Positions 2,029 to 30,199 of a DNA stretch of 36,343 nucleotides are shown here, piece after piece. The notes beneath the pieces are model-generated. The model made no database searches. It saw only the letters and a list, made by a program, of their open reading frames with translations, and was not told where the DNA came from. Source of the stretch: a virus; the IMG/VR virus record IMGVR_UViG_3300046048_000769; one strand, 5' to 3'. The translations under genes and the position numbers were made by a program. Position 1 is the first letter of the stretch; each line of letters opens with the position of its first letter.

Positions 2029-2442
2029 CTATTTCCTCAGTAATTTCAGGTGTCCTGTGATCCTGTCAACGTCCTCAGCATAGTTAGGACCGATACCTAC
2101 GCATGTATTGGTCGGCCCGTCAAAGGTCGTTAGCCCGCTATCGGTAATCAGATGAGCCGTCAAACCCGCGTCCTTGGCCTGCTGATATACCTCCAGTAAC
2201 TCCTCCTCGGACTCCACTTTGAGGACCACCTTTTTGAAAATACCAAGAAGCCACGCGGCCATTTCGGGCGTAACTTCGATATTTGCGGAGTATGTCCCAT
2301 GAGGCGTTTCCGCCAACTTTTCACGGACGATATTACTCAAGCCAGCCAATGCCGCATGACCCGCCTGGGCCATTTTCTTCCCGACATTCGCTTCCTTGAG
2401 GTCATTTCGCCAAATGATGACCTGTTTTACCTCTCTGGACAT
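2029..2442 (-). CDS. pth2: peptidyl-tRNA hydrolase, PTH2 (archaeal/eukaryotic) family
   Basis: VIIWRNDLKEANVGKKMAQAGHAA...GLTAHLITDSGLTTFDGPTNTCVGIGP...ITGHLKLL aligns with conserved PTH2 blocks (human PTRH2: [23 protein letters not shown] ... GIGPGP...VTGHLKL). GGAGG SD. Confidence 0.85.
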   Translation of the reverse strand: MSREVKQVIIWRNDLKEANVGKKMAQAGHAALAGLSNIVREKLAETPHGTYSANIEVTPEMAAWLLGIFKKVVLKVESEEELLEVYQQAKDAGLTAHLITDSGLTTFDGPTNTCVGIGPNYAEDVDRITGHLKLLRK

Positions 2443-2490
2443 ATCAATTCCTCCGAATGAATATTACTCCGCAAACGGCATTTTGTAAAC

Positions 2491-2733
2491 CTACCAGCTT
2501 TTGGAAGGCGTCCAAGAGTCGTCAATGGTGCGGTATTTCGAGGGAATCAACACGGGCACAGGCTCAATTTGACTGAAGCTGTCCAAAGGCATCGGAGGAC
2601 CAGTCACTATCAACTGCGGATAAATTCTTCTGATTAACGGAAGACTGATTCTTTTGAATTGGGCAGGGTCAGCCGATTTATTCTGATTTTCCAGAAGGGC
2701 CTTCACTATTTGTTCTTGTTTATTCATAAACAA
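2491..2733 (-). CDS. small protein with C-terminal KYRTIDDSWTPSKSW tag (W-tag family)
   Basis: ORF ends ...PSKYRTIDDSWTPSKSW*. Also shares an internal LPxIRRIYPxLI block with the adjacent paralog. Confidence 0.55.
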   Translation of the reverse strand: MFMNKQEQIVKALLENQNKSADPAQFKRISLPLIRRIYPQLIVTGPPMPLDSFSQIEPVPVLIPSKYRTIDDSWTPSKSW

Positions 2734-2963
2734 CTCGAAGGCGTCCAGGGATCATCAATCGACCGTCGTGTCGGTGGGACGAAAACATCAGGCACATCGA
2801 CAAAAACGTCAACCAACAGGGGCGGCGTTTTACTATTTGAAGAATAGCGATACTTCAAATAGTAAATCAAGCTCGCGGGCTGCGACAATGGTTGAACCGA
2901 TACGATGTTATTCGCAAGCAACGGCGGATATACCTTCCGCACGTTAGGCAACGTGATATTCAT
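2724..2963 (-). CDS. small protein with C-terminal RRSIDDPWTPSSCL tag (W-tag family, paralog of 2491..2733)
   Basis: ...PTRRSIDDPWTPSSCL*. The internal block LPNVRKVYPPLL matches LPLIRRIYPQLI of its neighbour. Confidence 0.55.
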   Translation of the reverse strand: MNITLPNVRKVYPPLLANNIVSVQPLSQPASLIYYLKYRYSSNSKTPPLLVDVFVDVPDVFVPPTRRSIDDPWTPSSCL

Positions 2964-2964
2964 G

Positions 2965-3306
2965 CTACATTTTACTTAACTCATCGAGGAAGTCTTGGTC
3001 GCACATGGCGGTTTCTTCCTCAATATCCTCATCCCTATATTTTTTACTCAGTGCCTCAAGCTGGCCGACAACGCGAACCTTAGAGGGCATCATCGAGTAA
3101 ATGGTGCCACAGCAAGTGGCTTGGCAAAAGCGATCATCGCCTTCAACACAATAGACTAATTTCCAATCAAGCGGAGCGGCACACTGAAAGCAAGAGCCGC
3201 GTTCCAGAAGTTCCTGGTAATCATACTCGCTCGATCCATGAGGGTTAACCTTGAGGCCCAAATCGACACCTTTATCACTCATCCTCGTTTCCCTGTTTAG
3301 GGCCAA
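2965..3306 (-). CDS. Cys-rich hypothetical protein
   Basis: ORF with CFQC...C-x-C/C-x2-C clusters and an acidic C-terminus. Confidence 0.45.
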   Translation of the reverse strand: MALNRETRMSDKGVDLGLKVNPHGSSEYDYQELLERGSCFQCAAPLDWKLVYCVEGDDRFCQATCCGTIYSMMPSKVRVVGQLEALSKKYRDEDIEEETAMCDQDFLDELSKM

Positions 3307-3487
3307 GATTAAAAGCCTGAGAGAATATAATGGTCTGCAACTGAATCACCAGTTGCAACGCTTCATCCCGATTAAAACCTTGACTACAAAGGTGGTTATG
3401 GTAAGTACCGAGCAATCCGGCGAAATGCTCTAGCATCGCACCGCCTTGCTCAAACGAATGTATCATATTGGCATACTGCTTGTCCAT
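3275..3487 (-). CDS. small hypothetical protein (70 aa)
   Basis: ORF with AGGAA SD. A TATAAT-like hexamer lies ~30 nt upstream. Confidence 0.35.
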   Translation of the reverse strand: MDKQYANMIHSFEQGGAMLEHFAGLLGTYHNHLCSQGFNRDEALQLVIQLQTIIFSQAFNLGPKQGNEDE

Positions 3488-3522
3488 ATTTCCTCACTTT
3501 TTGAAAGACAAACTTATTATAG

Positions 3523-3780
3523 TCAGTCTTCCGCATTCTCTTCGGACTCGGTTTCACCTTTCCACTTCTTCCACCAAGTCTTCATGAATTGCATCGTGAG
3601 AAATGTAACAACAGCGTTGACAAGAGCTTTGGCAATCACATACAGCAGCGGGGCCGCTACCTCAATGTATTGTGCTTCAACTTCTTGTTGATCTTCTAGC
3701 TTTTCTTGCTTTTTATCATCAGTATCCAAAACCCCTCCTATTGGGAAATGCAGTGGAGCCGGTGGGAGTCGAACCCACAA
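3523..3780 (-). CDS. small membrane protein; N-terminus uncertain because it overlaps the tRNA 3' end
   Basis: ORF has a hydrophobic segment (AAPLLYVIAKALVNAVVTFLTMQF) and an acidic tail. The first 27 nt overlap the tRNA at 3754-3837. Confidence 0.3.
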   Translation of the reverse strand: MWVRLPPAPLHFPIGGVLDTDDKKQEKLEDQQEVEAQYIEVAAPLLYVIAKALVNAVVTFLTMQFMKTWWKKWKGETESEENAED

Positions 3781-3837
3781 TCTGGTATGGTCCTCACGGA
3801 TTTCAGCATACCTATTTTCCCATTAAACTACGGCCCC
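3754..3837 (-). tRNA. tRNA-Phe(GAA)-like with a 10-nt insertion in the anticodon loop (putative short intron)
   Basis: Manual fold of the revcomp: acceptor GGGGCCG/CGGCTCC (one G-U pair), D-loop AATGGGA, anticodon stem GGTATG/CATACC enclosing a 17-nt loop CTGAAAT-CCGTGAGGAC (canonical Phe loop CUGAAAU plus 10 extra nt), variable AGATT, T-arm GTGGG-TTCGACT-CCCAC, discriminator A. CCA is not encoded. Confidence 0.6.
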
Positions 3838-4188
3838 GATTTCTTCTCCCCATTGTCGATAAATCTCTTCCATCTTCGGAACACTCAAGCCAACAAATCC
3901 CATGTCCGGCTCGCCGTCTTGCCCTCCAATTCTGCTCAAGGCTTCCGAGTTCATTCGTTCAATAATGTGCTGTGGAGGATCAATCAACTTCGGTATTGCA
4001 TTGAAAGCAAAATGCACAGACTCAAAAGGCAAGTCTTGCATCAAGCGAAACAAGTGCGGAGCCGCTTCACTCCCCATTTCCAAGACAGCCCGATAATCCG
4101 GGTCATCATGCTTGTGAAAAGAGAAATGAGAATTTCTGTTGTGATAAGCCAAAACACGTTCTTTAACTTCGTCATACGTCACACTCAT
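3823..4188 (-). CDS. hypothetical protein (121 aa)
   Basis: ORF whose ATG overlaps the metG stop in an ATGA arrangement. Its TAA stop falls inside the tRNA D-loop. Confidence 0.5.
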   Translation of the reverse strand: MSVTYDEVKERVLAYHNRNSHFSFHKHDDPDYRAVLEMGSEAAPHLFRLMQDLPFESVHFAFNAIPKLIDPPQHIIERMNSEALSRIGGQDGEPDMGFVGLSVPKMEEIYRQWGEEIGAVV

Positions 4189-5864
4189 TTGTTGATCCTT
4201 GGAAACAAAGTTACTTTATCCAAAAGAATAACTGGACCATCCATATCCATGTGTTCCAAATCTTCATCGTGATACATTCTATTTAGATATTTCCAATCCA
4301 GTTTATCTTCGACCTGAGTGAGCGTCAGACTTGCATCATGGGTGAATGGGAAAAACGTCCGATAAATCGTCTCCGACGTTTGCGGCAAAAAAGGTTTCAA
4401 TAATACACTCACCAAACGCAAACAAGAAACGCAATTTCGCAAAACTACTGCCAACTTGGTTGCTTCCTGATCGTTGTTTGCAAGCTCCCAAGGTTTCATT
4501 TGTTCAACATATCCGTTGCAATTGTCCAGAAGCTCCCACACCATTTGTAAGGCATGATTGTATTCATAGGCTTCAACATGCAGCTTGTAACGATCCAGCC
4601 ACTCACTGCTGGCCCATGACACCTGTCCGCTCCTGGCATATGGATTTTCACTGTCGTTGAGTCGAATTTCCGTCCTGGGAATGTAGGGCAGCGACCTGTC
4701 AAAATACTTGGTAATCATCGCGTTTACGCGGCTCACCAAGTTACCCAGGTTATTGGCCAAATCAGCATTGTAAACATCAACAAAATGCTCATAGCTGAAT
4801 TCGCTATCGTCGTGATAACGACACTTGGCAAGAAAATAGTATCGGTAAGCATCGACTCCGAATTGTTCGACAATATCAGAGGGATTCACAAAGTTCCCAC
4901 TTTTGGCGATTTTCGCCAAATTATTGTCTTTTCGTTGATAGAGAAAGCCATGAGCGTAGATTTTACGCGGCAAATCAATGGCCGGACCATCATCGAAAGC
5001 GTCGTTGTAGGCCATAATCATGGCAGGAAAGATGATACAGTGAAAGCGGGTAATGTCTTTCCCGATCAAGTGGCAATCAGCAGGCCACCATTTTTTGAAT
5101 TTTTGATGATCGGCACCAAACCCAATGCCTGTCAAATAATTGAGCAATGCGTCAAACCAGACATAAATTACCTGAGAATCATCCCAAGGAATCGGAATTC
5201 CCCACCCCTGATTTGTGCGACTGATGGAAATATCTTCCAGAGGACCGTTCAGAACGCTCATAACCTCGTTGTAACGGCTTTCTGGCTCAATCGTGAGTTC
5301 TGATACGGATTTACCGTCCGGCCCTACACGACGATGCAGGAGCTTCAGAAGCTCTTCTCGGAATTCACTCAGAGCGAAGAAATAATTTTCTTCCTCAACC
5401 TGCTCAATTTGCAAATTCGGGTGATTTGGACATTTGCCGTTGGTGAGCGAGTTTGGAGTTTTGAACTCCTCACAACCGTTACAATAAAGGCCAACATAGG
5501 GTTTTTTGTAGATATACCCCGCTCGGTACACAGTTGAAATAAATTCGTTCACCCCTTGGTGATGACACGGCTCCGAAGTCTGAATGAAATCGTCGTTGGA
5601 AATATCCAACTGTTTCCACACTTCCTGAAATCGACGGGCCATATCGTTGACGTATTTCTGCGGTCCTCCCGATCCAGGCTTTGCCACGGCTGCTGCGACT
5701 ATTTTTTGAGTATTTTCGTCATTCCCCATCAAAAAATAGACATCATCCCCGCACATGCGGTGCCATCGAGCCTGCACATCAGCACCGAGTTTTTCAAAAG
5801 CGGTGCCAATATGCGGCAACGCATTTGGATAATCAATCGCACAAGTAATGTAAAACTTACTCAT
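4185..5864 (-). CDS. metG: methionyl-tRNA synthetase, core enzyme (no C-terminal dimerisation/tRNA-binding extension)
   Basis: Class I Rossmann N-terminus (YITCAIDYPNALPHIGTAFE), a Zn-knuckle C-x2-C...C-x-N-H insertion, a KIAKS (KMSKS-like) loop and an anticodon-binding helical domain. Length 559 aa. Confidence 0.9.
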   Translation of the reverse strand: MSKFYITCAIDYPNALPHIGTAFEKLGADVQARWHRMCGDDVYFLMGNDENTQKIVAAAVAKPGSGGPQKYVNDMARRFQEVWKQLDISNDDFIQTSEPCHHQGVNEFISTVYRAGYIYKKPYVGLYCNGCEEFKTPNSLTNGKCPNHPNLQIEQVEEENYFFALSEFREELLKLLHRRVGPDGKSVSELTIEPESRYNEVMSVLNGPLEDISISRTNQGWGIPIPWDDSQVIYVWFDALLNYLTGIGFGADHQKFKKWWPADCHLIGKDITRFHCIIFPAMIMAYNDAFDDGPAIDLPRKIYAHGFLYQRKDNNLAKIAKSGNFVNPSDIVEQFGVDAYRYYFLAKCRYHDDSEFSYEHFVDVYNADLANNLGNLVSRVNAMITKYFDRSLPYIPRTEIRLNDSENPYARSGQVSWASSEWLDRYKLHVEAYEYNHALQMVWELLDNCNGYVEQMKPWELANNDQEATKLAVVLRNCVSCLRLVSVLLKPFLPQTSETIYRTFFPFTHDASLTLTQVEDKLDWKYLNRMYHDEDLEHMDMDGPVILLDKVTLFPRINK

Positions 5865-5881
5865 CGGAACCCTACATAAAG

Positions 5882-7060: not shown

Positions 7061-7089
7061 AACCTATCCTCCTTGAGAGAATTATAGGC

Positions 7090-15787: not shown

Positions 15788-16416
15788 AACAAAGCCTGCT
15801 CGCGGTCAGTTTGCTCTGCGGCTTCTTTTTTCTTGGCGGCTTCATTCATGACTTCAGACAGAGGTTCGCCGTCCTCGAAGTTTTCTGGAATGTATGCCTC
15901 CGGGGCATCGTTGGTTTTGGTGACAGTGCCTCTTTTTCCGAAGAGATCAAGCATCTTCTTCAGCATTGTGGCAATATATCTTTCCGTTTTCGGATGGAGA
16001 TATGTCTCAGGATTGCGAAAGAAAACGCTCTTGCCCTGCATACAGGCTTCACAACCCAAAACAATTATCCCCGCCATATGGCGTAGGCCCATGTCGCCCA
16101 TATTCAAAACTTCAATCGACTTGGGCGGATCAGTGCGGTCTGCTGGATCGAATGCCTCCTGCCATAAATGACGAAACAATTCTCCCTTGCTTATCCACTC
16201 CCATTGCTTCTGTGTCATTTCCGACATACATCGGATCGTATCCTGGGGATCAACCTCGACAAACTCAGGAACTTCTACTTTGAGTCCCTGCTGATGAACA
16301 ATGACACAAAAATTGGTTGCGTTCTCGATCTCATGCTCAGTCTTAACCGGCTCGTCGTCAACGATGTGTGTGGTTACGATTTTGGTCATCCGACAACTCC
16401 CTGACAACGCGAACAA
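15637..16416 (-). CDS. hypothetical protein with an ABC/AAA_21-like 'E-x-x-LHP' signature
   Basis: FFRNPETYLHP resembles the D-loop/His switch region of RecF/SMC/AAA_21-type ATPases. No clear Walker A was found. Confidence 0.45.
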   Translation of the reverse strand: MFALSGSCRMTKIVTTHIVDDEPVKTEHEIENATNFCVIVHQQGLKVEVPEFVEVDPQDTIRCMSEMTQKQWEWISKGELFRHLWQEAFDPADRTDPPKSIEVLNMGDMGLRHMAGIIVLGCEACMQGKSVFFRNPETYLHPKTERYIATMLKKMLDLFGKRGTVTKTNDAPEAYIPENFEDGEPLSEVMNEAAKKKEAAEQTDREQALFWLQCMEPEKAIVQLNGERLTVGRITEEVNNNTDIGRWFIDQYVRLRDGS

Positions 16417-19235
16417 AGCTCTCTAGTCTCAACAGTTCGCTTCCAACAACGCTGACACTTAGCCTGACTGCTCAATACGATCTTGAATTGATCTCCCTGA
16501 ACGTCGAAAGTGGTCAACGCCTCCTGTTGAGTTGAAGGCTGATATTTGCTCACGCCGAACCAATCCTCAACACCAAAAAACGTCTTGCCGTTTGACTCAA
16601 CAAACACGTCCAATTTATCGCTGACTTTCTTGTCTTTTTTCAAGAGATCGAAGGCCACGTTAAACGAGTCCAGAGCTTCCTGCCAATAGTCAATATCGTC
16701 TGCCAAGACATGCGGGGTGGACGCAACAACCTGCAAAGGCTGATAAACGAGGTCAAAAATATCTGGCGATTTCGGCTGCAATCCAATCACATCCAACACA
16801 AACCAATAGGGACAATGACCCAAAACTTCTGCTGCTGTATAGGTAAACAATGGAGCGACCAACCCCAACATCGAACGCAGCAATTGAAACACCGTATACT
16901 GTGCGGAATTTCGTTCTTTTCGATTGCCGCAATAGAGACGGTCCTTAGCAGCACTCATCCAGATACCACTCAACTCGGCATGAATGAAATCATTCAGCAT
17001 GTGTGTGCCACGACAGAAGTCGTATTCGGCATACAAACGATGAATATCGCCAAAGACTTCGCTGGCTTTGCTCAGAATCCAAAAATCAATCGGCATCAGG
17101 TCTTCTTGCCGAACCGTGTCGTGAGCCTTTGTCCGCAAAGAAAGATTTCTTTCACTGTCCAAATTGGCAACTAAATAACGCAACGTATTTCGCAGCTTCC
17201 GATACCCCTCTGAGCAACGCTTGAGAATTGGATCGCTCAATCGCATTTCACGGGTGTAATCCGTCGTTGCCACCCAATAACGAAGAACCTCTGCTCCATA
17301 TTGCTTCAATACGGTTTCAGGTGATACGACGTTGCCTTTTGACTTCGCCATCTTTTCGCCCTTCTCATCCACCACGAATCCGTGGCTGATGATCTTCTTG
17401 AAGGGTGCCTCTTTGCTGATCGCCAGTCCAAGCCACAACGAACTCTGAAACCAGCCGCGATGTTGATCGCTACCTTCGCAGTACACGTCCGCAGGTCGTG
17501 TTGTGAGCGAATCAATGAAGCTCCAACTCAATCCGCTGTCGAACCAGACATCGAGGATGTCTTCAACCTTCTCGAAGTCATCTGGCTTGTACTTGTAGTG
17601 TTCCGGCAAAAAGCTCTCGACGGGAAGCTCCCACCAGCGTTCTGTATCATTGTGGATTTGAGCGGAAGTCGCCGCCAAAATATCCTCGAAGAACCATGCT
17701 CGCCCCGTCTTCTTGTGACGGAGAAAAGCAATCGGCACACCCCACGCTCGTTGACGACTGATACACCAGTCTTCGCGGTCCTTCACCATCGCCATCAAGC
17801 GGTTCTTCGCCACTTCTGGAACGAAGGTCGTATTCTCCACAGCATCAATTGCAGCGGGACGCAGCGGCTCCAGGTCTACATACCATTGATCCGTGGCACG
17901 AAAAATAACAGGCGTGCCCGAACGCCAACAATGAGGATAACTGTGAGTGATTTTCTCTTTCAGCAATAAGTTGCCATAATTCCTCAATGACTCGATGACA
18001 AATTCGTTGCCGAATTTCAGCACATGCTGACCGTCAATAATGCCACCGGGCATAGGCGTATGTTGACGGCCAAGGGCGACATAGACTTCTTGAGTCCAGT
18101 TGCCTCGCTCATCAACAGGTTGATACACCGGCAAATTGTGCTTCTGACCAACTTGGTAGTCGATAACACCGTGACCTGGGGCGATGTGTACGCAACCCGT
18201 ACCAGTGTGCATGTCTACAAAATCTTCGCAGATTACCGGCACGTTCATATTATGAGCGAGGGGCTTAACACATTGGGTTACTCCGTCCGCTAATTCGCTC
18301 CCCATGACAGTAGCAAACACATCCTTGGCGATGCCTTTTTCCACCATCGCATCAAAGCGTTTTTTTGCCATAAAAACCAACGGCAAAGGCAAGGCTCCAT
18401 GCGGGTGATTCAATACGTTGACTTCAACGGAACACCAACACGCGACATATTCTTCGTCAGGATGAATTGCGACAGCAGCGTTCGACGGCAATGTCCAGGG
18501 TGTAGTTGTCCAAACCAACAATGCAGCTTTAGATTCCCCGTTACGATATGCCGTCCACATATCATGCTCATCAGGAATGATCTTATTCCACAGGCTGGAG
18601 TCCAACTTGATCTCGAACGCCACGTAGACAGCATCGTCTTCCCTATCTTTGTATTCAATCTCGGCTTCGGCCAAAGCGGTCTGCTCGGCCCAGGACCAAT
18701 ACACAGGCTTCTGCCGTTGAAACAGCAAGTGATCCGCAGCCAGTTGACGCAGAGCGTCAAAGATACGCGACTCATTTTGGGGAGCCATCGTGGTATAGGG
18801 ATGATCCCAATCAGCGATGACGCCCAGGGTCTTAAACTCTTCGCGTTGAATATCAAGCTGCTGCTGTGCATACTCGCGGCACTTACGACGAGTGGTCACT
18901 CGATCATCGGATACATCGCGGGCCTTCTTCTCGATAGGCAGACCATGACAGTCCCAACCAGGGACAAATTCCACAGATTGACCGCTGAAGTAGTGCTGCT
19001 TGACAATGAAATCCTTGAGAATTTTGTTCATCGCGTGGCCGATATGAATCGACCCATTTGCATACGGAGGCCCATCATGCAAAACGAAATCAGGGTCATG
19101 GTGCCTCTGACGCCGCATTCTTCTGTATACGCCCCCGTTATTCCACAAAGCATAAACTTCCGGCTCACTGGCCGGAAGATTTGCCTTGATGGGCATATCA
19201 GTTTTGGGTAGTTTTAGTGTCTCTTTGAAACTCAT
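16386..19235 (-). CDS. ileS: isoleucyl-tRNA synthetase (bacterial type, Zn-binding C-terminus)
   Basis: HIGH (PPYANGSIHIGHAMN), KMSKS (KMAKSKGNV), the CP1 editing insertion, and C-terminal C-x2-C...C-x2-C (CQRCWKR...CSRCQ). 949 aa. GAGG SD. Confidence 0.9.
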   Translation of the reverse strand: MSFKETLKLPKTDMPIKANLPASEPEVYALWNNGGVYRRMRRQRHHDPDFVLHDGPPYANGSIHIGHAMNKILKDFIVKQHYFSGQSVEFVPGWDCHGLPIEKKARDVSDDRVTTRRKCREYAQQQLDIQREEFKTLGVIADWDHPYTTMAPQNESRIFDALRQLAADHLLFQRQKPVYWSWAEQTALAEAEIEYKDREDDAVYVAFEIKLDSSLWNKIIPDEHDMWTAYRNGESKAALLVWTTTPWTLPSNAAVAIHPDEEYVACWCSVEVNVLNHPHGALPLPLVFMAKKRFDAMVEKGIAKDVFATVMGSELADGVTQCVKPLAHNMNVPVICEDFVDMHTGTGCVHIAPGHGVIDYQVGQKHNLPVYQPVDERGNWTQEVYVALGRQHTPMPGGIIDGQHVLKFGNEFVIESLRNYGNLLLKEKITHSYPHCWRSGTPVIFRATDQWYVDLEPLRPAAIDAVENTTFVPEVAKNRLMAMVKDREDWCISRQRAWGVPIAFLRHKKTGRAWFFEDILAATSAQIHNDTERWWELPVESFLPEHYKYKPDDFEKVEDILDVWFDSGLSWSFIDSLTTRPADVYCEGSDQHRGWFQSSLWLGLAISKEAPFKKIISHGFVVDEKGEKMAKSKGNVVSPETVLKQYGAEVLRYWVATTDYTREMRLSDPILKRCSEGYRKLRNTLRYLVANLDSERNLSLRTKAHDTVRQEDLMPIDFWILSKASEVFGDIHRLYAEYDFCRGTHMLNDFIHAELSGIWMSAAKDRLYCGNRKERNSAQYTVFQLLRSMLGLVAPLFTYTAAEVLGHCPYWFVLDVIGLQPKSPDIFDLVYQPLQVVASTPHVLADDIDYWQEALDSFNVAFDLLKKDKKVSDKLDVFVESNGKTFFGVEDWFGVSKYQPSTQQEALTTFDVQGDQFKIVLSSQAKCQRCWKRTVETRELCSRCQGVVG

Positions 19236-23217: not shown

Positions 23218-23658
23218 TTATTTTATCCTTCTGTATCGTTTGGGAAGTGCTTTTTTCTTGGCCGCTTTCTTAGGAGTTGCTTTCTTGGCGGGAACTTTCT
23301 TGGCTGTCTTTTCACGCGGAAGACTCATGATTTTTGTGGTGAAATCCATTGAGTGTGGATCGACATATTGACTGTCTATCAACTTCCAGCCGTGATCGCG
23401 GAAATGTTTGACCCAACTCTCTAAGTTTCCCATTCCCTCCCCGCACCTGAATGTCTTCATGCGACAAGTGATACAATCATCTAGCTCTCGAACGAATATC
23501 TCCTTTATTTCGTCCTTTTGATATTCGTGAGGATGCACAGACGATGGGCCTACATAGAGCGTCAATCCCTCCCAGGGCTGATAGAAGATTTCAGTTATCT
23601 TAATGAACCAATAGGTTTCATCAAAATAATCGAACCGCTTTATGAACTTACACTTCAT
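23218..23658 (-). CDS. protein with histone-H1-like Lys/Ala/Pro-rich C-terminal tail
   Basis: C-terminus KTAKKVPAKKATPKKAAKKKALPKRYRRIK. N-terminal globular part has C-x2-C. Confidence 0.5.
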   Translation of the reverse strand: MKCKFIKRFDYFDETYWFIKITEIFYQPWEGLTLYVGPSSVHPHEYQKDEIKEIFVRELDDCITCRMKTFRCGEGMGNLESWVKHFRDHGWKLIDSQYVDPHSMDFTTKIMSLPREKTAKKVPAKKATPKKAAKKKALPKRYRRIK

Positions 23659-24848
23659 GACATTCTCTCAAAGGAAAAGTTCCCTTCGACAGCCAGTTTT
23701 TGTTGCAGCCCATACATATCGAGCATTTCCTGCTTGCCGCGTCGATCCCTGATGTTCATGCCGCCATTGGCCAACTCCTTATCGCCAACCACCAACATAT
23801 ATGGGATTTTTTGCTCAGTTGCAAGTGCGATCTTATGTGGAAGAGTATTATTGGACCTGTCGATTTCAACACGAAAATGGCGACTGAGATATTCGTGATA
23901 ATACTCAACAGCTTGGTGGTGTCGATCAGCAATTGGCAGCAAAACCATTTGCACCGGAGCCAACCAGAATGGAAGTTCTCCTTGGTAGTGTTCCAACAAA
24001 ATGGCGATGAACCGCTCGAAGCTACCATAGAACGCCCGATGGATCACAATGGGCATCTGGTCCACGTCGTTGGAATCTGCATATTTCAGATTAAACCTCT
24101 GAGGCAGTTGAAAATCAAGTTGAATAGTAGCTGTTTGCCATTCTCTGTCCAAGGAGTCTTTGACCATAAAGTCGATCTTAGGTCCGTAGAAAGCCCCCTT
24201 GCCTTCGTCGATCTCAAACGACAGCGATCCCATGTTCAAGACAGACTTCAAAGCATCCTCAGCCTGATTCCAGGCTTTCGCTACTCCCATGAATTTCTCT
24301 GGTCTAGTTGACAGCACAGCACGAAGCGACATCCCGAACGCTCGATACACATCCCCCACCATTCCAACAAGCTCAAAGGCTTCTTTCGCAATGGCATCTG
24401 GCTCTGAAGGGATGAAGCAATGGGCGTCGTCCTGGCAAAAAGATCGACAGCGAGTCAGCCCGCCAATCGCACCAGACACTTCGTTACGATGCAACACGCC
24501 TTGATCGTGAATACGATATGGCAGGTCACGATAGCTCCACTGTTTGGCAGCGAAGATGGTCATGTGAGCAGGACAATTCATCGGCTTGAGGGCATACTCT
24601 TCATCGCCAATGATGAACATATTTTCTTTGTAATGATCCCAATGACCCGAAGTTTTGAACAACTCCGGCTTATAGAGAAGCGGAGTTCTGACCTCGACGT
24701 ACCCATTTTTCAGATTGTATTGCCTGATTTTTTCGCTGAGGAGCGAATAGACCGTGTTTCCGTGCGGCAACCAAATAGGGCAGCCCGGCGAAACCGGACT
24801 GAACATAAACAAATCAAGCTGCTGTCCAATTTCTCTGTGATCTTTCAT
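23655..24848 (-). CDS. thrS: threonyl-tRNA synthetase, catalytic plus anticodon-binding domains only (no N-terminal TGS/editing domains)
   Basis: Starts DHREIGQQLDLF (equivalent to ~residue 240 of bacterial ThrRS), has class II motifs 1-3 (FRAE-like HRNEVSG..., GSFERF) and a C-terminal anticodon-binding domain. 397 aa versus ~640 aa for full-length enzymes. Confidence 0.85.
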   Translation of the reverse strand: MKDHREIGQQLDLFMFSPVSPGCPIWLPHGNTVYSLLSEKIRQYNLKNGYVEVRTPLLYKPELFKTSGHWDHYKENMFIIGDEEYALKPMNCPAHMTIFAAKQWSYRDLPYRIHDQGVLHRNEVSGAIGGLTRCRSFCQDDAHCFIPSEPDAIAKEAFELVGMVGDVYRAFGMSLRAVLSTRPEKFMGVAKAWNQAEDALKSVLNMGSLSFEIDEGKGAFYGPKIDFMVKDSLDREWQTATIQLDFQLPQRFNLKYADSNDVDQMPIVIHRAFYGSFERFIAILLEHYQGELPFWLAPVQMVLLPIADRHHQAVEYYHEYLSRHFRVEIDRSNNTLPHKIALATEQKIPYMLVVGDKELANGGMNIRDRRGKQEMLDMYGLQQKLAVEGNFSFERMS

Positions 24849-25633: not shown

Positions 25634-26220
25634 ACGATCTTTACATTAAAGGGCATACAAAGACGCGAGCCTTCGCCTTTGAAGGGATAAACAACGTGTT
25701 GCAGCCAAGCCGGGAAAAGGTACATATCGCCTACGACCGGAAGAACAGTTCGCTGACCACAGAAGTCAGCGGTCGCGGGCATATGTCGTCCGAATATAAA
25801 GTCGATACAACCCTCTTTGCTCTCAAGGCTGCATTGAGGCGGAACTTGAAGGTAAACAATTCCAGCCAATAAACCGCCATGTTGGTGAACAGGGTTAAAG
25901 TCTCCTGCTTTTTGCTCAACCAACCAAAGCTGGTCTAGCTCTAGTTTAACACTTTGCGGCTGACCCGACAATTGCTCCATGTATTGGTAAGACAACTTGA
26001 GAAACAATTCAGCGATATTGGGTTCTAATTTATCGACAGGCAAACCCAACTGACGACCCTCGCTCATCTTGCCTGCAAGATATGGAGAATAGTCCTCCGC
26101 AGTTGGAGCGTACTCTTCACAAAAACCTTTTAGATAATCAACAATCCAATTTGGCAAGTGAGCTTTCATCGGACCAACGATGAAAACAGGGTCAATGACT
26201 GCTGAAACTTGCTCCTCCAT
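25630..26220 (-). CDS. 2OG-Fe(II) oxygenase-like protein (TIGR02466/cyanophage-type)
   Basis: NPVHQHGGLLAGIVYL...GCIDFIF...GDMYLFPAWLQHVVYP...SRLCMPFN matches the family pattern (nP.H.H...SGVYY...G.l.F.dP...G.l.lFPSWL.H.V.p....R.SisFN). Confidence 0.6.
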   Translation of the reverse strand: MEEQVSAVIDPVFIVGPMKAHLPNWIVDYLKGFCEEYAPTAEDYSPYLAGKMSEGRQLGLPVDKLEPNIAELFLKLSYQYMEQLSGQPQSVKLELDQLWLVEQKAGDFNPVHQHGGLLAGIVYLQVPPQCSLESKEGCIDFIFGRHMPATADFCGQRTVLPVVGDMYLFPAWLQHVVYPFKGEGSRLCMPFNVKIV

Positions 26221-26221
26221 T

Positions 26222-26791
26222 TTACCTCCAAGGGGGCGGTTCCAAATCCGACGTGTTGTACGGCCCAGGATCGTTTCTCAGAGCCTCGCGGACGGCCATG
26301 CAGACTTCGCCCAACCAATTCGTTCCCTGCCACTGAGAGCGATCTGTGGCCCTCTGGTCATCTTCTCGAAGACCAATACCCCAAATCTTGTCATAAGGAC
26401 TTGCCTCTACGATCTCCTTGTCGCCCGTGCCAAGAAGATATTCCATAAGATGGGGATTTTGACTAAACTTGGCCATGTTTCCTACATAGACAATATCCCT
26501 GGAAACATCGTTCCAACGATCTGCGTCGAAATTCCGAACCTCTCGACCAAGAGCTTTCTGTTGACGAGGCGTATCAGCCTCCATGATTTCCTGCTGAATT
26601 TCTTGGTCCTCAAAGAATTCAGCTTTCTTGGCCATCATGTACTGCTCTGCACAGTTGTACTCAATTCCATCAACCTCAAAAGAGGAATCATGCCACTGAG
26701 AACAAGGACCGTCCCAAAAGAATTCAAACTGATCTCGCTCGTCCATTTCTCTTTCCTTTATCTGACCTGGGGTGCTACGGTTTGAATACAA
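26222..26791 (-). CDS. NADAR-domain protein (YbiA-like N-glycosidase)
   Basis: FEFFWDGPCSQWHDSSFEVDGIEYNCAEQYMMAKKAEFF...KALGREVRNFDADRW...KFSQNPHLMEYLLGTGDKEIVEASPYDKIWGIGL matches the NADAR consensus. Confidence 0.75.
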   Translation of the reverse strand: MYSNRSTPGQIKEREMDERDQFEFFWDGPCSQWHDSSFEVDGIEYNCAEQYMMAKKAEFFEDQEIQQEIMEADTPRQQKALGREVRNFDADRWNDVSRDIVYVGNMAKFSQNPHLMEYLLGTGDKEIVEASPYDKIWGIGLREDDQRATDRSQWQGTNWLGEVCMAVREALRNDPGPYNTSDLEPPPWR

Positions 26792-26852
26792 AAAGTTCTT
26801 CTTTTGGCAAGCAAGCTGTCAGCCCATGCTGATGCATCCATAGAATCTTTCA

Positions 26853-27276: not shown

Positions 27277-27283
27277 GCCTTCA

Positions 27284-28287: not shown

Positions 28288-28288
28288 A

Positions 28289-28573
28289 TTACCACCATCG
28301 TAAATCCTTGAACGACTTTTCAAACTGATAATCGGGCACAGGATCAAGCCATCGCTCTGCCCAATGCCATTGACCTAAATCCAGGTCAATGCGATAGCAA
28401 TCTTCTACTTCAGAAACCTGTGCAATGACAGCTTCTTGATTGAAGTAGACCCTCATGGAAGCATTGCATTTAGGTGAAAGTTCACACTCTTCTGGCGTCA
28501 GCTTCCGAATGCGAACCTTGTCACCTACCTTAAACTTAGGTTTCAATTGTCGTGACCACCTTATTTTTGACAA
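28289..28573 (-). CDS. hypothetical protein (94 aa)
   Basis: ORF only. Confidence 0.45.
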   Translation of the reverse strand: MSKIRWSRQLKPKFKVGDKVRIRKLTPEECELSPKCNASMRVYFNQEAVIAQVSEVEDCYRIDLDLGQWHWAERWLDPVPDYQFEKSFKDLRWW

Positions 28574-28934
28574 TTAGTCTGAAAGAACTCGCAAATTCTC
28601 CGTTAGTGGGCGGCGTCTCCATTTTTTGAGGAAACTTACCACTCCGAAATTCGTCAATAAGTTCCGCAGCCTTTCCAGAAAGTATGATCTCCCTAACTTC
28701 ATCGAGATCATATCCGAGAACTCGCTCAAAAAACCGAAGAATCGCATGTTCGCTAACAACCGCCTCTTTATCCTTCAGCTTTTCCATCCCGTCTCGGACT
28801 TGTTTGATTTTGCCTTGAATCTCGTTGACTTGCTGGCTGGCCGACTTCTGATCCCTTTGTGCTTCTTGAAGCTCCTTCTGCAAGGTCGTGAGTCGCGTTT
28901 GTAACTGCTTTAATTCGCGGGTTGAGTCTGCCAT
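28536..28934 (-). CDS. coiled-coil protein
   Basis: N-terminal heptad-rich region (LKQLQTRLTTLQKELQEAQRDQ). Confidence 0.5.
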   Translation of the reverse strand: MADSTRELKQLQTRLTTLQKELQEAQRDQKSASQQVNEIQGKIKQVRDGMEKLKDKEAVVSEHAILRFFERVLGYDLDEVREIILSGKAAELIDEFRSGKFPQKMETPPTNGEFASSFRLIVKNKVVTTIET

Positions 28935-28951
28935 AATTACCTCATGGTGTG

Positions 28952-29275
28952 TTACTCATTCAAGGCTTCATGATAATACAAATCCTTGAATTGCTCAAAC
29001 AATTCCCTACCGCCGAAGCGATCCGCTATTTCCCCCAACATCCAGTTCCAACCAGGACGCTCCAACGCCAGCTTCGCAATCGCAAGCATAACAACCTGCA
29101 ACTCCGAGTTGTCAATACAAACACCATGCTCAGATGGAGGCGGGCCTTCCTTTATCAATTTCAATAACGCATCCAACTCATCCTCCACCGAAGTTGAAAC
29201 TAACGTATTTTCAATCATTCGCTGTTCCACACGGTTAATTTCTTGAACCCTGGTCTTCTTTGTGTCTACGTTCAC
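28952..29275 (-). CDS. hypothetical protein (GTG start)
   Basis: ORF only. Confidence 0.45.
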   Translation of the reverse strand: MNVDTKKTRVQEINRVEQRMIENTLVSTSVEDELDALLKLIKEGPPPSEHGVCIDNSELQVVMLAIAKLALERPGWNWMLGEIADRFGGRELFEQFKDLYYHEALNE

Positions 29276-29393
29276 AATCGGTGTTCCCGCAGCAAGTGGT
29301 GCCTTCCCTTTGCCAGCCTACCCATTCGTAGTTGAATTTGCGGCCACAATAATCACAAATCATGCTTATCACGTCTTCTGCCACCGTGTATTC

Positions 29394-29621
29394 CTAAAGC
29401 CAAGTTTCAATGATGTTGGGATCGTCTTCCGGGTGACGATCCATCCTGTGCAATCCCGGTGGAAGTTGACGACGAATATCATCCAACGAATCCCCGGTGA
29501 AATGGTCCTCGGTGATAGTCACCGTGCCTGGACCAATTTCGTTTCTCCTACAAACAAAGACACCAGGGAAATCCCTGGTGCCAGTGCCGAAAACGACCCA
29601 TATATCGAGTTTGCCGCTCAT
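29394..29621 (-). CDS. small hypothetical protein
   Basis: ORF whose start overlaps the frr stop. Confidence 0.4.
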   Translation of the reverse strand: MSGKLDIWVVFGTGTRDFPGVFVCRRNEIGPGTVTITEDHFTGDSLDDIRRQLPPGLHRMDRHPEDDPNIIETWL

Positions 29622-30199
29622 TTCATTCTCTCGATTTTAGCTGCGATAATGTTGTCGATTTCTTGAATGTACTTGTCGGTCATCTTCTGCAAATCATCTT
29701 CCATACGACGAAGTTCGTCTTCACTGAGAAAAGTATCTTTTTTGAACTGCTGCCGAAACTTCTTGCGAACATTTCTGACAGCGACCTTAGCTTCTTCTCC
29801 CAATGCTGAAAGTCGTGCGACCACCTTTTGACGATCCTCTCCACATGGAGGCGGAACGCTGACGACGACTTCGGTTTTTGAAAATACAAATGCCTCAAAA
29901 CCTGCTGCCTTGAGTCCTTTCTCAATGGCAAACCTATTCTGAGCATCGTGTGGCTCAATCCGAATTCGTCCGCCCTGCTTTGACGTTTGGGCAAGGTGCC
30001 CAATCGGCATTGGCTGACCATAACACACAACTCTCACGGAGTCGATCACAGCAGAAGTAATCAATCCGTGTCTGATGCCGACCAATTGGTCCGACAGAAA
30101 ATCAAGAGACTTTTCCATCAAGTCTCTTGGTTCCTTCAAATTATCCCCAGGTACACATTCCAGTTTCCTCCGTTTAGTTCGAGAATTAGTAAGACCCAT
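29618..30199 (-). CDS. frr: ribosome recycling factor
   Basis: EEAKVAVRNVRKKFRQQFKK...LSEDELRRMEDDLQKMTDKYIQEIDNIIAAKIERM aligns with the RRF C-terminal helix bundle (VAVRNVRRDANDK...ISEDD.RR.QDDVQKLTD). The N-terminal arm resembles the RRF beta-domain. Confidence 0.8.
   Translation of the reverse strand: MGLTNSRTKRRKLECVPGDNLKEPRDLMEKSLDFLSDQLVGIRHGLITSAVIDSVRVVCYGQPMPIGHLAQTSKQGGRIRIEPHDAQNRFAIEKGLKAAGFEAFVFSKTEVVVSVPPPCGEDRQKVVARLSALGEEAKVAVRNVRKKFRQQFKKDTFLSEDELRRMEDDLQKMTDKYIQEIDNIIAAKIERMK

What the first reader, a model, noticed from the sequence alone, without database searches (positions are those of the whole stretch)
2029..30199. Translation-system island: three aaRS, SmpB, PTH2, RRF and RNase HI with no tmRNA visible
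MetRS, IleRS, ThrRS, SmpB, ribosome recycling factor, a PTH2-type peptidyl-tRNA hydrolase and RNase HI, plus tRNAs, all lie within 36 kb on one strand. SmpB is useless without tmRNA (ssrA), yet I could not recognise a tmRNA in this window; the tRNA-like elements lack the MLR/tag reading frame. PTH2 is the archaeal/eukaryotic hydrolase family, whereas bacteria mostly use Pth. This gene set implies the element takes over ribosome rescue and recycling and aminoacylation for Met, Ile and Thr during infection.
Basis: partly seen in the sequence, partly recalled or inferred. Interest (0 to 1): 0.6.

Follow-up and report, generated by a model that had tools for sequence, protein, structure and literature searches.

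The report
Huge-phage translation island with odd tRNA
This is a stretch of a very large bacteriophage genome carrying its own protein-synthesis helpers, which is already known for such phages. It also encodes a conserved alanine-type tRNA look-alike with a blocked anticodon loop that may act in ribosome rescue.

Summary
The genes are real and intact, all on the minus strand: PTH2, MetRS, SmpB, IleRS, ThrRS (catalytic and anticodon-binding domains only), a divergent RRF and tRNA-Arg(UCU). The RNase H-like gene lies at 35495-35935, outside the stated interval. ARAGORN and Rfam at curated thresholds find no tmRNA.

The window is a whole 36-kb metagenome contig. It is syntenic with 181-346-kb phage-like contigs. 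Such translation islands are already described for huge phages (aaRS, RF, RRF, SmpB, tmRNA, PTH2). Only 1 of 30 large SmpB-bearing viral loci had a tmRNA within 10 kb of smpB, so "no tmRNA here" is the norm. SmpB keeps the conserved columns of bacterial SmpBs and most likely uses host tmRNA, or a phage tmRNA encoded elsewhere.

The interesting part is the tRNA-like gene at 3751-3837:
- It is conserved in six lineages, with 12 of 25 base pairs showing compensatory changes.
- G3:U70 and A73 (alanine identity) are invariant.
- The anticodon loop is 19 nt, carrying a stable mini-hairpin.
- A related RNA in another huge phage sits 184 nt from a PTH2 gene.

It may be a tag-less mini-tmRNA, an insertion-bearing tRNA or a decoy. 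This is unresolved.

The parts
2029..2442 (-). PTH2-type peptidyl-tRNA hydrolase (137 aa)
   Evidence: Pfam PF01981 101.6 bits over the full profile. TIGR00283 97.7 against a cut-off of 82. phrog_1866.
3751..3837 (-). Conserved alanine-identity tRNA-like RNA. It has a cloverleaf with G3:U70 and A73, a 19-nt 'anticodon loop' (YUGAAA, then a 3-bp hairpin capped by a GNRA tetraloop), and no encoded CCA.
   Evidence: Rfam tRNA 49.4 bits (gathering 29), with 19 nt in place of the 7-nt loop. Rfam tmRNA model 33.2 bits (gathering 47). Six homologues: 25 pairs, 98.7% paired, 12 with compensatory changes, 0 of 500 shuffles as good. RNAalifold predicts the same structure independently.
3823..4188 (-). 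121-aa ORF of unknown function. Its stop codon TAA (3823-3825) lies inside the D-loop of the tRNA-like RNA.
   Evidence: Sequence read directly. Homologues P0121-P0125 precede the RNA in L005, L008, L012 and L013. P0125 in L011 lies about 3 kb downstream of that lineage's RNA.
4185..5864 (-). Methionyl-tRNA synthetase (559 aa)
   Evidence: TIGR00398 418.8 against 336. Motifs are HIGT, as in the Planctomycete MetRS P0033, and KIAKS. Best cellular relatives are Planctomycetota, at about 50-52% identity.
14802..15257 (-). SmpB (151 aa)
   Evidence: PF01668 186.5 bits; NF003843 193.7 against 130. 88% identical to the L005 homologue. The central region, the DKR motif and the C-terminal tail are kept.
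16386..19235 (-). Isoleucyl-tRNA synthetase (949 aa), full length with editing domain and C-terminal zinc finger
   Evidence: TIGR00392 780.8 against 621. HIGH motif at residue 64, KMAKS, and CxxC...CxxC at the C-terminus.
23655..24848 (-). Threonyl-tRNA synthetase, catalytic plus anticodon-binding domains only (397 aa); no TGS or editing domains
   Evidence: TIGR00418 465.5 against 384, model positions 171-549 of 565. phrog_18916 positions 242-616 of 643. Sequence.
29618..30199 (-). Divergent ribosome recycling factor (193 aa)
   Evidence: PF01765 119.2 bits. TIGR00496 105.2, below its cut-off of 149.
32157..32273 (-). Second non-canonical tRNA-like RNA (117 nt). It has a perfect 7-bp acceptor, a D-arm, a T-arm, and about 46 extra nt in the anticodon region that include an extra T-arm-like hairpin.
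   Evidence: Rfam tRNA 33.3 bits (gathering 29), with 59 nt in place of 13. Default ARAGORN misses it. ARAGORN -i calls it 'tRNA-Ser(gga)' with a 35-nt intron and a poor stem. Conservation could not be tested.
34588..34662 (-). tRNA-Arg(UCU)
   Evidence: ARAGORN. Rfam tRNA 71.9 bits.
35495..35935 (-).
   Evidence: PF13456 55 bits, PF00075 26.4 bits. phrog_531 'RNase H'.

Best explanation
The window is part of a huge (probably more than 180 kb) bacteriophage genome. It carries a conserved translation-support island.

The inferred mechanism is that the phage keeps the host ribosome pool working for its own late protein synthesis, especially when the host shuts down or attacks its translation apparatus:
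- It supplies its own MetRS, IleRS and an editing-less ThrRS to charge tRNAs.
- SmpB enters ribosomes stalled on broken mRNAs.
- PTH2 hydrolyses released peptidyl-tRNA.
- RRF splits post-termination or rescued ribosomes.

SmpB conserves the columns that are invariant in the bacterial SmpBs it was aligned with. It therefore most probably works with a canonical tmRNA supplied in trans. That tmRNA would be the host's, or a phage copy elsewhere in the genome.

The island also encodes a conserved, structured, alanine-identity tRNA-like RNA whose anticodon loop is occupied by a stable hairpin. It is under selection, and I read it as a non-decoding part of the same rescue and recycling toolkit.

What is shown: gene identities, intactness, synteny, and RNA structure and conservation. 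What is inferred: every functional step.
For: - Gene identities exceed curated cut-offs.
- There are no internal stops, and catalytic motifs are present or match the cellular subfamily.
- The same gene order is found in JAANMV010000001.1 (345,913 bp) and ERZ24794640 NODE_635 (181,713 bp). It runs SmpB ... DUF3307-PRTase-cpYpsA-MVP-like-MetRS-RNA-Gp23-like-PTH2-HNH.
- SmpB is 88% identical between window and relative, against 70% for MetRS, which indicates strong purifying selection.
- SmpB keeps the DKR motif, the tail and the columns invariant in bacterial SmpBs.
- PHROG families exist for PTH2, SmpB, MetRS, ThrRS and RNase H.
- The literature reports aaRS, RF1/2, RRF, tmRNA and SmpB in huge phages (PMC7162821), and PTH2 across jumbo phages for rescue of jammed ribosomes (PMC7824862).
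- Only 1 of 30 large SmpB-bearing viral loci has a tmRNA within 10 kb of smpB.
- RNA covariation is strong.
Against: - No structural or replication hallmark gene lies in the window itself. Viral origin rests on relatives, on gene style, and on 40-residue Gp23-like peptides.
- No complete genome of this clade could be scanned. A phage-encoded tmRNA elsewhere is neither shown nor excluded.
- RRF is below the NCBIfam cut-off.
- ThrRS lacks its editing domain.
- MetRS and IleRS carry KIAKS and KMAKS in place of KMSKS, so full activity is not guaranteed.
- The host is unknown. Planctomycetota is only suggested by MetRS similarity.
Confidence: 0.75

Rival explanations
1. Tag-less rescue module. The Ala-tRNA-like RNA (3751-3837) is the dedicated partner of the phage SmpB, a mini-tmRNA without a message. 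The proposed steps are:
1. Charged with alanine through G3:U70, it enters the empty A site with SmpB and EF-Tu.
2. It accepts the stalled peptide.
3. There is no reading frame to resume on, so the peptidyl-RNA is released by RRF/EF-G-driven drop-off, or by the short RF1-like protein of the relatives.
4. PTH2 then hydrolyses it.

Ribosomes are freed without tagging phage proteins for degradation.
For: - G3:U70 and A73 are invariant in all six lineages while neighbouring pairs co-vary.
- There is no normal anticodon loop.
- The clades sampled over the syntenic region (window, L005, and the L008 contig via P0128) encode SmpB, and window, L005 and L008 encode PTH2. RRF was seen only in the window, because the relatives' loci do not reach that region. 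L005 and L008 also carry a domain-1-less RF1 homologue.
- The related RNA L149 has a stemless, tmRNA-like D region. It scores 40.5 bits with the TLD-only model and lies 184 nt downstream of a PTH2 gene in a 239-kb viral contig.
- RNAs that are only the tRNA-like domain of tmRNA (TLD-only) are abundant in viral contigs: 95 distinct in a truncated scan.
- There is a precedent in phage DS6A (PMC4131195).
Against: - The window RNA has a true tRNA D-stem, supported by two compensatory pairs, and a coaxial anticodon stem. In tmRNA that space is occupied by SmpB (from my knowledge of the TLD-SmpB structures, not tested here).
- It lacks the UUCGAC and GGAC junction signatures of tmRNA.
- With the TLD-only covariance model it scores 20-33 bits, no better than ordinary tRNAs at 20-30.
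- Co-occurrence with SmpB could not be tested in the L011/L014 and L149 lineages.
- No SmpB, PTH2 or RRF lies near the other 164 loci recovered in the two TLD-pattern scans.
Confidence: 0.25
2. Insertion-bearing ('intron-containing') tRNA gene, of the kind reported in Lak megaphages. The 9-11-nt hairpin is removed or tolerated, and the product decodes.
For: - It is a tRNA by the Rfam gathering score (49.4 against 29).
- In the numbering of L013 and L011, the insertion sits exactly between positions 37 and 38. That is the canonical intron site.
- ARAGORN in intron mode yields a clean cloverleaf in all six lineages.
- The window holds a second tRNA-like gene with a larger insertion.
- Devoto et al. 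report 'enigmatic introns', including one in tRNA-Phe(GAA), and state that they may be common in large phages (bioRxiv 10.1101/356790).
Against: - No bulge-helix-bulge motif is present, and no splicing endonuclease was seen.
- The homologous-position model gives anticodon GAA in five lineages but AAA in L011.
- ARAGORN's GAG model needs non-homologous excision points: 35/36 in five lineages against 32/33 in L011.
- Either anticodon conflicts with the alanine identity and the tRNA-Ala-like body. The best non-self hits of model R1 are tRNA-Ala.
- The hairpin keeps a stable tetraloop (GNRA or UUCG) through evolution, as expected of a part that functions in the mature RNA.
Confidence: 0.25
3. Decoy or inhibitor. 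The RNA mimics an alanine tRNA or the tmRNA tRNA-like domain. It would titrate a host factor, such as host SmpB, AlaRS, an anticodon nuclease or another tRNA-targeting defence, without taking part in translation.
For: - Hudson et al. state, citing Mao 2009, that a TLD-only molecule strongly inhibits tmRNA, perhaps by titrating SmpB (PMC4131195).
- Jumbo phages are known to counter tRNA-directed defences (PMC7824862).
- The conserved U-turn-like YUGAAA presents an anticodon-loop-like face.
Against: - A phage that encodes its own highly conserved SmpB is unlikely to aim at blocking SmpB.
- No nuclease or defence partner was identified.
- G3:U70 conservation argues that charging matters.
Confidence: 0.15
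4. The contig is a piece of a bacterial chromosome or a large plasmid, not a phage, and the genes are ordinary housekeeping copies.
For: - No capsid, terminase or tail gene lies within the 36 kb.
- Most proteins have bacterial homologues.
- Al-Shayeb et al. note that some large plasmids carry similar gene suites.
Against: - Genes are interleaved with many small ORFs that lack Pfam or PHROG matches. They also sit among HNH endonucleases, Gp23-propeptide-like peptides, NADAR, DUF4326 and a 2OG-Fe(II) oxygenase of phrog_81.
- The aaRS are 50% or less identical to any named cellular enzyme.
- ThrRS is truncated, and PTH2 takes the place of Pth.
- The distant relatives L014 and L149 are IMG/VR viral contigs.
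Confidence: 0.04

Closest known systems
Translation-gene repertoires of huge and jumbo phages (Al-Shayeb et al. 2020, PMC7162821; Iyer et al. 2021, PMC7824862)
   Same: Several aaRS, tRNAs, RRF, SmpB, release-factor homologues and PTH2 in place of Pth. These are accompanied by NADAR, DUF4326, SLOG, RlaP and Thg1 genes. Contigs are 180-530 kb.
   Different: No tmRNA lies in the 36 kb or in about 60 kb of relatives' loci. The ThrRS lacks editing domains. An alanine-type tRNA-like RNA sits between MetRS and PTH2.
tmRNA (Rfam RF00023) with SmpB
   Same: A 7-bp acceptor with G3:U70 and A73, and a T-arm GGGUUCGACUCCC. The RNA is encoded in a genome that also encodes SmpB. It overlaps an upstream ORF, so that 5' processing would leave a non-stop mRNA, as noted for Carsonella smpB/ssrA (PMC4131195).
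   Different: There is no mRNA-like region, no tag frame and no pseudoknots. A real D-stem and an anticodon-type stem are present. Score is 33.2 bits against a gathering score of 47. CCA is not encoded.
Phage RNAs that are only the tRNA-like domain of tmRNA (TLD-only): mycobacteriophage DS6A (Hudson, Lau and Williams 2014), plus the family seen here in IMG/VR and in Streptomyces phage Bordeaux
   Same: About 80 nt, with G3:U70. A short helix in place of helix 2 is capped by an A-rich 5' bulge and a CC/GG mini-hairpin (UGAAAUCC-loop-GGAC). They are phage-encoded. L149 links the two types.
   Different: TLD-only RNAs have a stemless GGUUUCGAC D-loop and a GGAC junction, and often an encoded CCA. 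The window RNA has none of these, and it scores like an ordinary tRNA with the TLD-only model.
tRNA genes with 'enigmatic introns' in Lak megaphages (Devoto et al., bioRxiv 10.1101/356790)
   Same: A huge-phage tRNA gene that is longer than normal because of an insertion in the anticodon loop. The insertion is highly conserved. A second case in the window has an insertion that itself looks tRNA-like.
   Different: The insertion here is only 9-11 nt and forms its own tetraloop hairpin. The acceptor identity (Ala) does not fit any anticodon that excision would give. The Lak sequences could not be compared, because no supplement is held.
tRNA-Ala(UGC) of phages
   Same: The acceptor GGGGNNG, the D-arm GUAGUUUAAUGG.A.AA and the T-arm are nearly identical to tRNA-Ala genes of unrelated IMG/VR phages. 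These are the best non-self hits of model R1.
   Different: The anticodon arm is 13 nt longer and has no UGC anticodon.

Membership tests
tmRNA (RF00023) | tRNA-like domain with a G3:U70 acceptor and a T-arm | tested here: met
   GGGGCCG/CGGCUCC with G3:U70 and A73. The T-arm matches the tmRNA consensus.
tmRNA (RF00023) | mRNA-like region with a resume codon, a tag ORF and a stop codon, plus pseudoknots | tested here: not met
   Only 44 nt lie between the acceptor and the T-arm, where the model has 310. ARAGORN reports no tmRNA or tag peptide.
tmRNA (RF00023) | Score at or above the Rfam gathering threshold (47 bits) | tested here: not met
   33.2 bits.
TLD-only phage mini-tmRNA (family defined here, alignment A6) | Stemless D-loop ..GGUUUCGAC.. 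and a GGAC junction before the T-arm | tested here: not met
   The window RNA has a D-stem GUUU/AAAU (GCUC/GAGC in L011) with compensatory changes, and AGAUU before the T-arm.
TLD-only phage mini-tmRNA (family defined here, alignment A6) | Scores above ordinary tRNAs with the family covariance model R2 | tested here: not met
   Window 29.1 bits and relatives 20-33, against ordinary tRNAs at 20-30 and true members at 40-52.
TLD-only phage mini-tmRNA (family defined here, alignment A6) | Short helix capped by an A-rich 5' bulge and a CC/GG mini-hairpin | tested here: inconclusive
   The resemblance is visible by eye (UGAAAUCC-GUGA-GGAC against UGAAAGCC-loop-GGAC). The motif is short, and the first scan required TRAAA. 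In the unbiased scan 31 of 95 members have it.
tRNA (RF00005) | Cloverleaf scoring above the gathering threshold (29 bits) | tested here: met
   49.4 bits for the window, 45.8-48 for relatives.
tRNA (RF00005) | Seven-nucleotide anticodon loop presenting an anticodon | tested here: not met
   19 nt in place of 7. Default ARAGORN reports an impossible 4-base anticodon.
Archaeal/eukaryal-type intron-containing tRNA | Insertion at position 37/38 | tested here: met
   Canonical numbering of L013 and L011 puts the hairpin between A37 and N38.
Archaeal/eukaryal-type intron-containing tRNA | Bulge-helix-bulge motif (3-nt bulges flanking a 4-bp helix), with a splicing endonuclease available | tested here: not met
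   The structure has a 6-nt 5' bulge, a 3-bp helix and a 1-nt 3' bulge. No endonuclease domain was found in the scanned ORFs.
Alanine-accepting tRNA (AlaRS substrate) | G3:U70 wobble pair in the acceptor stem, with A73 | tested here: met
   GU in 6 of 6 lineages while pairs 5:68 and 7:66 co-vary. Actual charging cannot be tested here.
SmpB (PF01668 / TIGR00086) | Full-length beta-barrel with central region, DKR motif and basic C-terminal tail | tested here: met
   Profile positions 1-139 of 143. Scores are above cut-offs. The alignment with bacterial SmpBs shows no deletions, and the tail runs 12-16 residues after DKR.
Bacterial threonyl-tRNA synthetase (TIGR00418) | N-terminal TGS and editing domains plus the catalytic core | tested here: not met
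   Only model positions 171-549 are covered. The protein starts at the catalytic domain. The catalytic core itself is above the cut-off.
Ribosome recycling factor (TIGR00496) | Score above the equivalog cut-off (149 bits) | tested here: not met
   105.2 bits. The Pfam RRF domain is clearly present at 119 bits.

The most novel reading that the evidence does not exclude
The alanine-identity tRNA-like RNA is a message-less partner of the phage SmpB. Together with RRF, PTH2 and (in relatives) a short RF1-like factor, it would form a self-contained, tag-free ribosome-rescue pathway. The stalled peptide is transferred to Ala-RNA, the peptidyl-RNA is released, and PTH2 hydrolyses it. The phage would thereby free ribosomes without marking its own proteins for degradation. 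The widespread viral RNAs that are only the tRNA-like domain of tmRNA would be simpler versions of the same trick, using host SmpB.
Probability: 0.22. Interest if true: 0.8.

Novelty: new variant of a known kind. Interest (0 to 1): 0.5.

Why it matters
As a gene island this is an ordinary, already described feature of huge phages. It adds one more clade, possibly one infecting Planctomycetota.

The RNA is what could matter. It is a strongly conserved tRNA look-alike that should be charged with alanine but cannot read a codon in the normal way. It is encoded beside MetRS and PTH2 in a genome that also has SmpB and RRF. It may be a minimal, tag-less relative of tmRNA. In that case trans-translation could be reduced to peptide transfer followed by hydrolysis. 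That would also explain why phages carry PTH2.

The side observation is that about 80-nt RNAs consisting only of the tmRNA tRNA-like domain are common in viral contigs. If confirmed, it points to a large unannotated class of phage RNAs acting on ribosome rescue.

Tried and rejected
- **GenBank phages, DNA.** Megablast of 25 kb found nothing. tblastn of MetRS and SmpB found only distant or contaminant hits.
- **IMG/VR, SmpB.** Peptide-pattern searches with one or two SmpB sequences found nothing. A 29-sequence alignment was needed.
- **IMG/VR, RNA arm.** An exact-arm pattern found nothing. My first broad pattern hit only ordinary tRNA-Ala genes.
- **Bacterial genomes.** The window-type RNA pattern gave 0 hits in 185,579 species genomes.
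- **tmRNA beside smpB in other huge phages.** ARAGORN and Rfam gave nothing in L015, L016, L018 and L021-L023, and 1 of 30 loci overall.
- **Window RNA as a TLD-only member.** Model R2 does not separate it from ordinary tRNAs. I therefore do not file it there.
- **Structural motifs.** I considered a kink-turn and a bulge-helix-bulge reading of the arm. Neither fits the bulge sizes, judged by eye.
- **ARAGORN's 'tRNA-Leu(gag)' call.** Not accepted as the identity. The excision points are not homologous between lineages, and the RNA lacks the long variable arm of bacterial tRNA-Leu.
- **Unknown ORFs.** A PHROG scan of ten of them gave only the Gp23-like peptide.
- **Literature.** A search for the relative's accession numbers found nothing. 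The Lak paper's intron table is not held.

Full report
**1. What is in the window**

All long ORFs lie on the minus strand, many with overlapping stop and start codons. Profile searches identify the following genes.

| Gene | Coordinates | Size | Evidence |
|---|---|---|---|
| PTH2 | 2029-2442 | 137 aa | Pfam 101.6 bits; TIGR00283 97.7 vs 82 |
| MetRS | 4185-5864 | 559 aa | TIGR00398 418.8 vs 336 |
| SmpB | 14802-15257 | 151 aa | Pfam 186.5 bits; NF003843 193.7 vs 130 |
| IleRS | 16386-19235 | 949 aa | TIGR00392 780.8 vs 621 |
| Class II synthetase | 23655-24848 | 397 aa | ThrRS by TIGR00418, 465.5 vs 384 |
| RRF | 29618-30199 | 193 aa | Pfam 119 bits; NCBIfam 105 vs 149 |
| RNase H-like | 35495-35935 | 146 aa | RVT_3 55 bits, RNase_H 26.4 bits |

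- The ThrRS covers only profile positions 171-549 of 565. It begins at the catalytic domain and lacks the TGS and editing domains.
- The RRF is divergent, since it falls below the NCBIfam cut-off.
- None of these ORFs has an internal stop.
- MetRS has HIGT in place of HIGH, but so does the Planctomycete MetRS P0033. Its KMSKS motif reads KIAKS.
- IleRS has HIGH, KMAKS and the C-terminal zinc finger.

ARAGORN finds tRNA-Arg(UCU) at 34588-34662, a 'tRNA-???' at 3753-3837, and no tmRNA. Rfam finds no tmRNA at gathering score.

**2. Where it comes from**

The window is a complete 36,343-bp JGI metagenome contig. Its own MetRS is on record with that contig length. It has no close DNA match among GenBank phages.

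The nearest relative is NCBI contig JAANMV010000001.1 (345,913 bp). Its MetRS is 70% and its SmpB 88% identical to the window's. The gene order is the same: SmpB, DUF3307, phosphoribosyltransferase, cpYpsA, a vault-like protein, MetRS, the tRNA-like gene, Gp23-like peptides, PTH2 and HNH. A second relative is an ENA contig of 181,713 bp.

These contigs consist of many small same-strand ORFs without known domains. A 79-aa ORF (2724-2963) matches the propeptide region of T4 Gp23 and phrog_138. A more distant relative of the tRNA-like gene lies on a 527-kb IMG/VR viral contig. I therefore accept a huge-phage origin.

The best cellular MetRS hits are Planctomycetota at about 50-52% identity. This only hints at the host.

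**3. Is the gene set unusual?**

It is not.
- Al-Shayeb et al. report up to 15 aaRS per huge phage, release factors 1 and 2, RRF, tmRNAs and SmpB (PMC7162821).
- Iyer et al. report PTH2 across jumbo phage groups 2 and 3. They interpret it as rescue of ribosomes jammed by host anticodon nucleases. They also describe NADAR, DUF4326, SLOG, RlaP and Thg1 in such phages (PMC7824862).
- PHROG families exist for the PTH2, SmpB, MetRS, ThrRS and RNase H homologues.

**4. Is SmpB without tmRNA a paradox?**

It is not.
- The SmpB belongs to a clade of unnamed 141-150-aa SmpBs, 60-88% identical to it, found on contigs of up to 602 kb.
- Three such contigs have no tRNA or tmRNA within 10 kb of smpB.
- IMG/VR holds at least 242 SmpB loci. 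Of 30 large ones examined, only L063 had a canonical tmRNA within 10 kb.
- The phage SmpBs align without deletions to bacterial SmpBs. They keep the DKR motif and a basic tail of 12-16 residues.

They should therefore recognise a normal tmRNA tRNA-like domain. The simplest reading is that the phage SmpB uses host tmRNA, or a phage tmRNA elsewhere in a genome roughly ten times larger than this window. I could not scan a complete genome of the clade.

**5. The tRNA-like gene at 3751-3837**

This is the unusual item. It has the following features.
- A 7-bp acceptor, GGGGCCG/CGGCUCC, with G3:U70 and discriminator A73.
- A D-arm and T-arm almost identical to phage tRNA-Ala(UGC) genes.
- An 'anticodon arm' consisting of a 6-bp stem, a 5' bulge CUGAAA, a 3-bp helix UCC/GGA capped by GUGA, and one 3' bulged C.
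- No encoded CCA.

Rfam's tRNA model gives 49.4 bits (gathering 29), with 19 nt where the 7-nt loop should be. The tmRNA model gives 33.2 bits (gathering 47), using only the acceptor and T-arm.

Homologues exist in five other lineages: L005, L008, L012, L013 and the distant L011/L014. Default ARAGORN misses three of them.

On the six-sequence alignment, 98.7% of cells pair and 12 of 25 pairs show compensatory changes. No shuffle out of 500 does as well, and slid registers collapse to 40-57%. RNAalifold predicts the same structure on its own.

G3:U70 is kept in 6 of 6 lineages, while pairs 5:68 and 7:66 and most T-stem pairs change. The mini-hairpin loop switches among GUGA, GAAA, GAGA, GACA, a triloop and UUCG. 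All of these are stable caps.

The RNA is therefore functional and under selection, and by the established AlaRS identity rule it should accept alanine. That last step is inferred.

The stop codon of the upstream 121-aa ORF lies in the D-loop in five lineages. RNase P processing would therefore leave that mRNA without a stop codon. The same situation is noted for Carsonella smpB/ssrA (PMC4131195).

**6. What could the RNA be?**

*(a) A message-less tmRNA relative.*
- Hudson et al. list mycobacteriophage DS6A as having a 'TLD only' tmRNA. They note that such a molecule inhibits tmRNA, perhaps by titrating SmpB.
- BLAST of the window RNA hit an unannotated 81-nt RNA in Streptomyces phage Bordeaux and its relatives. 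This RNA is a clear TLD-only molecule, with tmRNA model score 33.5 bits and the D-loop aligned to the tmRNA consensus.
It yielded 95 distinct RNAs of 66-86 nt, all with intact acceptors and G3.
- The structure of this family has strong covariation: 7 of 7 helix-2 pairs are compensatory.
- In bacterial genomes, only about 15-22 of the first 120 hits were genuine.
- These RNAs share with the window RNA a short helix capped by an A-rich bulge and a CC/GG mini-hairpin.

However, the window RNA has a real D-stem and lacks the UUCGAC and GGAC signatures. With the TLD-only model it scores 20-33 bits, like ordinary tRNAs at 20-30. True members score 40-52. I therefore do not file it in that family.

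A linking form exists. L149, on a 239-kb viral contig, has a stemless D region and scores 40.5 bits with the TLD-only model. Its arm (AUGAAAUCC...GGGAC), T-arm and acceptor are nearly identical to the window family. It lies 184 nt downstream of a PTH2 gene that is 47% identical to the window's. None of the other 164 loci recovered in the two TLD-pattern scans has PTH2, SmpB or RRF nearby.

*(b) An insertion-bearing tRNA.*
- In canonical numbering the hairpin sits between positions 37 and 38.
- ARAGORN in intron mode produces a clean cloverleaf in all six lineages.
- Devoto et al. describe conserved 'enigmatic introns' in huge-phage tRNAs, including tRNA-Phe(GAA).
- The window has a second tRNA-like gene at 32157-32273, with about 46 extra nt.

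Against this reading:
- There is no bulge-helix-bulge motif.
- The homologous-site model gives GAA in five lineages and AAA in L011.
- ARAGORN's GAG anticodon needs different excision points in different lineages.
- Any of these anticodons conflicts with the alanine-type body.

*(c) A decoy for a host factor.*
This cannot be excluded.

**7. Most likely mechanism**

For the island as a whole, I commit to the standard model. The phage maintains and redirects host translation. It charges Met, Ile and Thr tRNAs itself. It rescues ribosomes stalled on damaged mRNAs through SmpB. It recycles peptidyl-tRNA through PTH2 and ribosomes through RRF. Every step is inferred from homology. Confidence is 0.75.

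Within that model, the partner of SmpB is most likely a canonical tmRNA supplied in trans.

The reading that the alanine-type RNA is itself the SmpB partner in a tag-free pathway is attractive. The relatives also carry a domain-1-less RF1 homologue just beyond the window's left end, and L149 is linked to PTH2. The tRNA-type D-arm weakens it. I give it about 0.2-0.25.

**8. Verdict**

- The 'missing tmRNA' is not surprising.
- The island is a new member of a known kind.
- The conserved Ala-type tRNA-like RNA is a new variant that deserves an experiment.

Noticed in passing
IMG/VR loci L101-L265 (e.g. L112 5908-5987 minus strand; L154 7634-7712 minus strand); Streptomyces phage Bordeaux MN369757.1 = L020 1481-1561: A large family of 66-86-nt RNAs that are only the tRNA-like domain of tmRNA. 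Each has a G3:U70 acceptor, a GGUUUCGAC D-loop, a 5-7-bp helix capped by a small hairpin, a GGAC junction and a T-arm. They are unannotated in GenBank phages, and the searchable literature mentions only DS6A. They are strongly enriched in viral over bacterial contigs, and covariation supports the fold.
   Followed up: partly
window 32157-32273 (-): A second non-canonical tRNA-like gene of 117 nt. It has a perfect acceptor GUUGACG/CGUCAAC, a D-arm and a T-arm. About 46 extra nt in the anticodon region include an additional T-arm-like hairpin (UCGGGUUCGAUUCCCGA). Rfam tRNA gives 33.3 bits. Default ARAGORN misses it. Conservation was not tested.
   Followed up: partly
window 7382-10123 (-): A 913-aa protein with a major-vault-protein shoulder domain (Pfam 83.7 bits). 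It matches rat MVP residues 465-804 at E = 4.6e-16. It is conserved in the relatives (903 and 886 aa). A vault-shell homologue in a phage is unexpected.
   Followed up: partly
window 3823-3837 (-): The stop codon of the 121-aa ORF 3823-4188 lies inside the D-loop of the tRNA-like RNA. This overlap is conserved in five lineages. 5' processing of the RNA would leave the ORF's mRNA without a stop codon.
   Followed up: partly
L005 15882-16514; L008 13886-14563 (just beyond the window's left end in the synteny): The relatives encode a 210-225-aa release factor 1 homologue that lacks domain 1 (prfA model positions about 107-343 of 361, below cut-off). An RlaP nucleotidyltransferase follows it.
   Followed up: partly
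L149 6010-6742 (-) (IMGVR_UViG_3300015263_000944, 239 kb): A PTH2 gene is followed 184 nt downstream by an Ala-type RNA. This RNA is intermediate between the window's tRNA-like RNA and the TLD-only family.
   Followed up: partly
window 10194-12155 (-) and 25316-26791 (-): Two clusters are linked to NAD/ADP-ribose or nucleotide chemistry. One is cpYpsA SLOG + phosphoribosyltransferase + DUF3307. The other is DUF4326 + 2OG-Fe(II) oxygenase + NADAR. Both gene kinds are known from jumbo phages.
   Followed up: no
window 20261-21838 (-): A 525-aa protein combines a DFP (pantothenate-metabolism flavoprotein C-terminal) domain with a class II aldolase/adducin domain. Both matches are weak (27 and 25 bits).
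   Followed up: no
L011 5912-8132 (ENA k141_1531274; same as IMG/VR 527-kb contig L014): In the distant lineage, the tRNA-like RNA sits directly after a Thg1-like gene. It is also near a 294-aa catalytic-domain-only GluRS/GluQRS-like protein and a TnpB-like gene.
   Followed up: no
window 4185-5864 and 16386-19235 (-): Both class I synthetases have an alanine at the third position of the KMSKS motif: KIAKS in MetRS and KMAKS in IleRS. MetRS HIGT is shared with cellular Planctomycete enzymes.
   Followed up: partly
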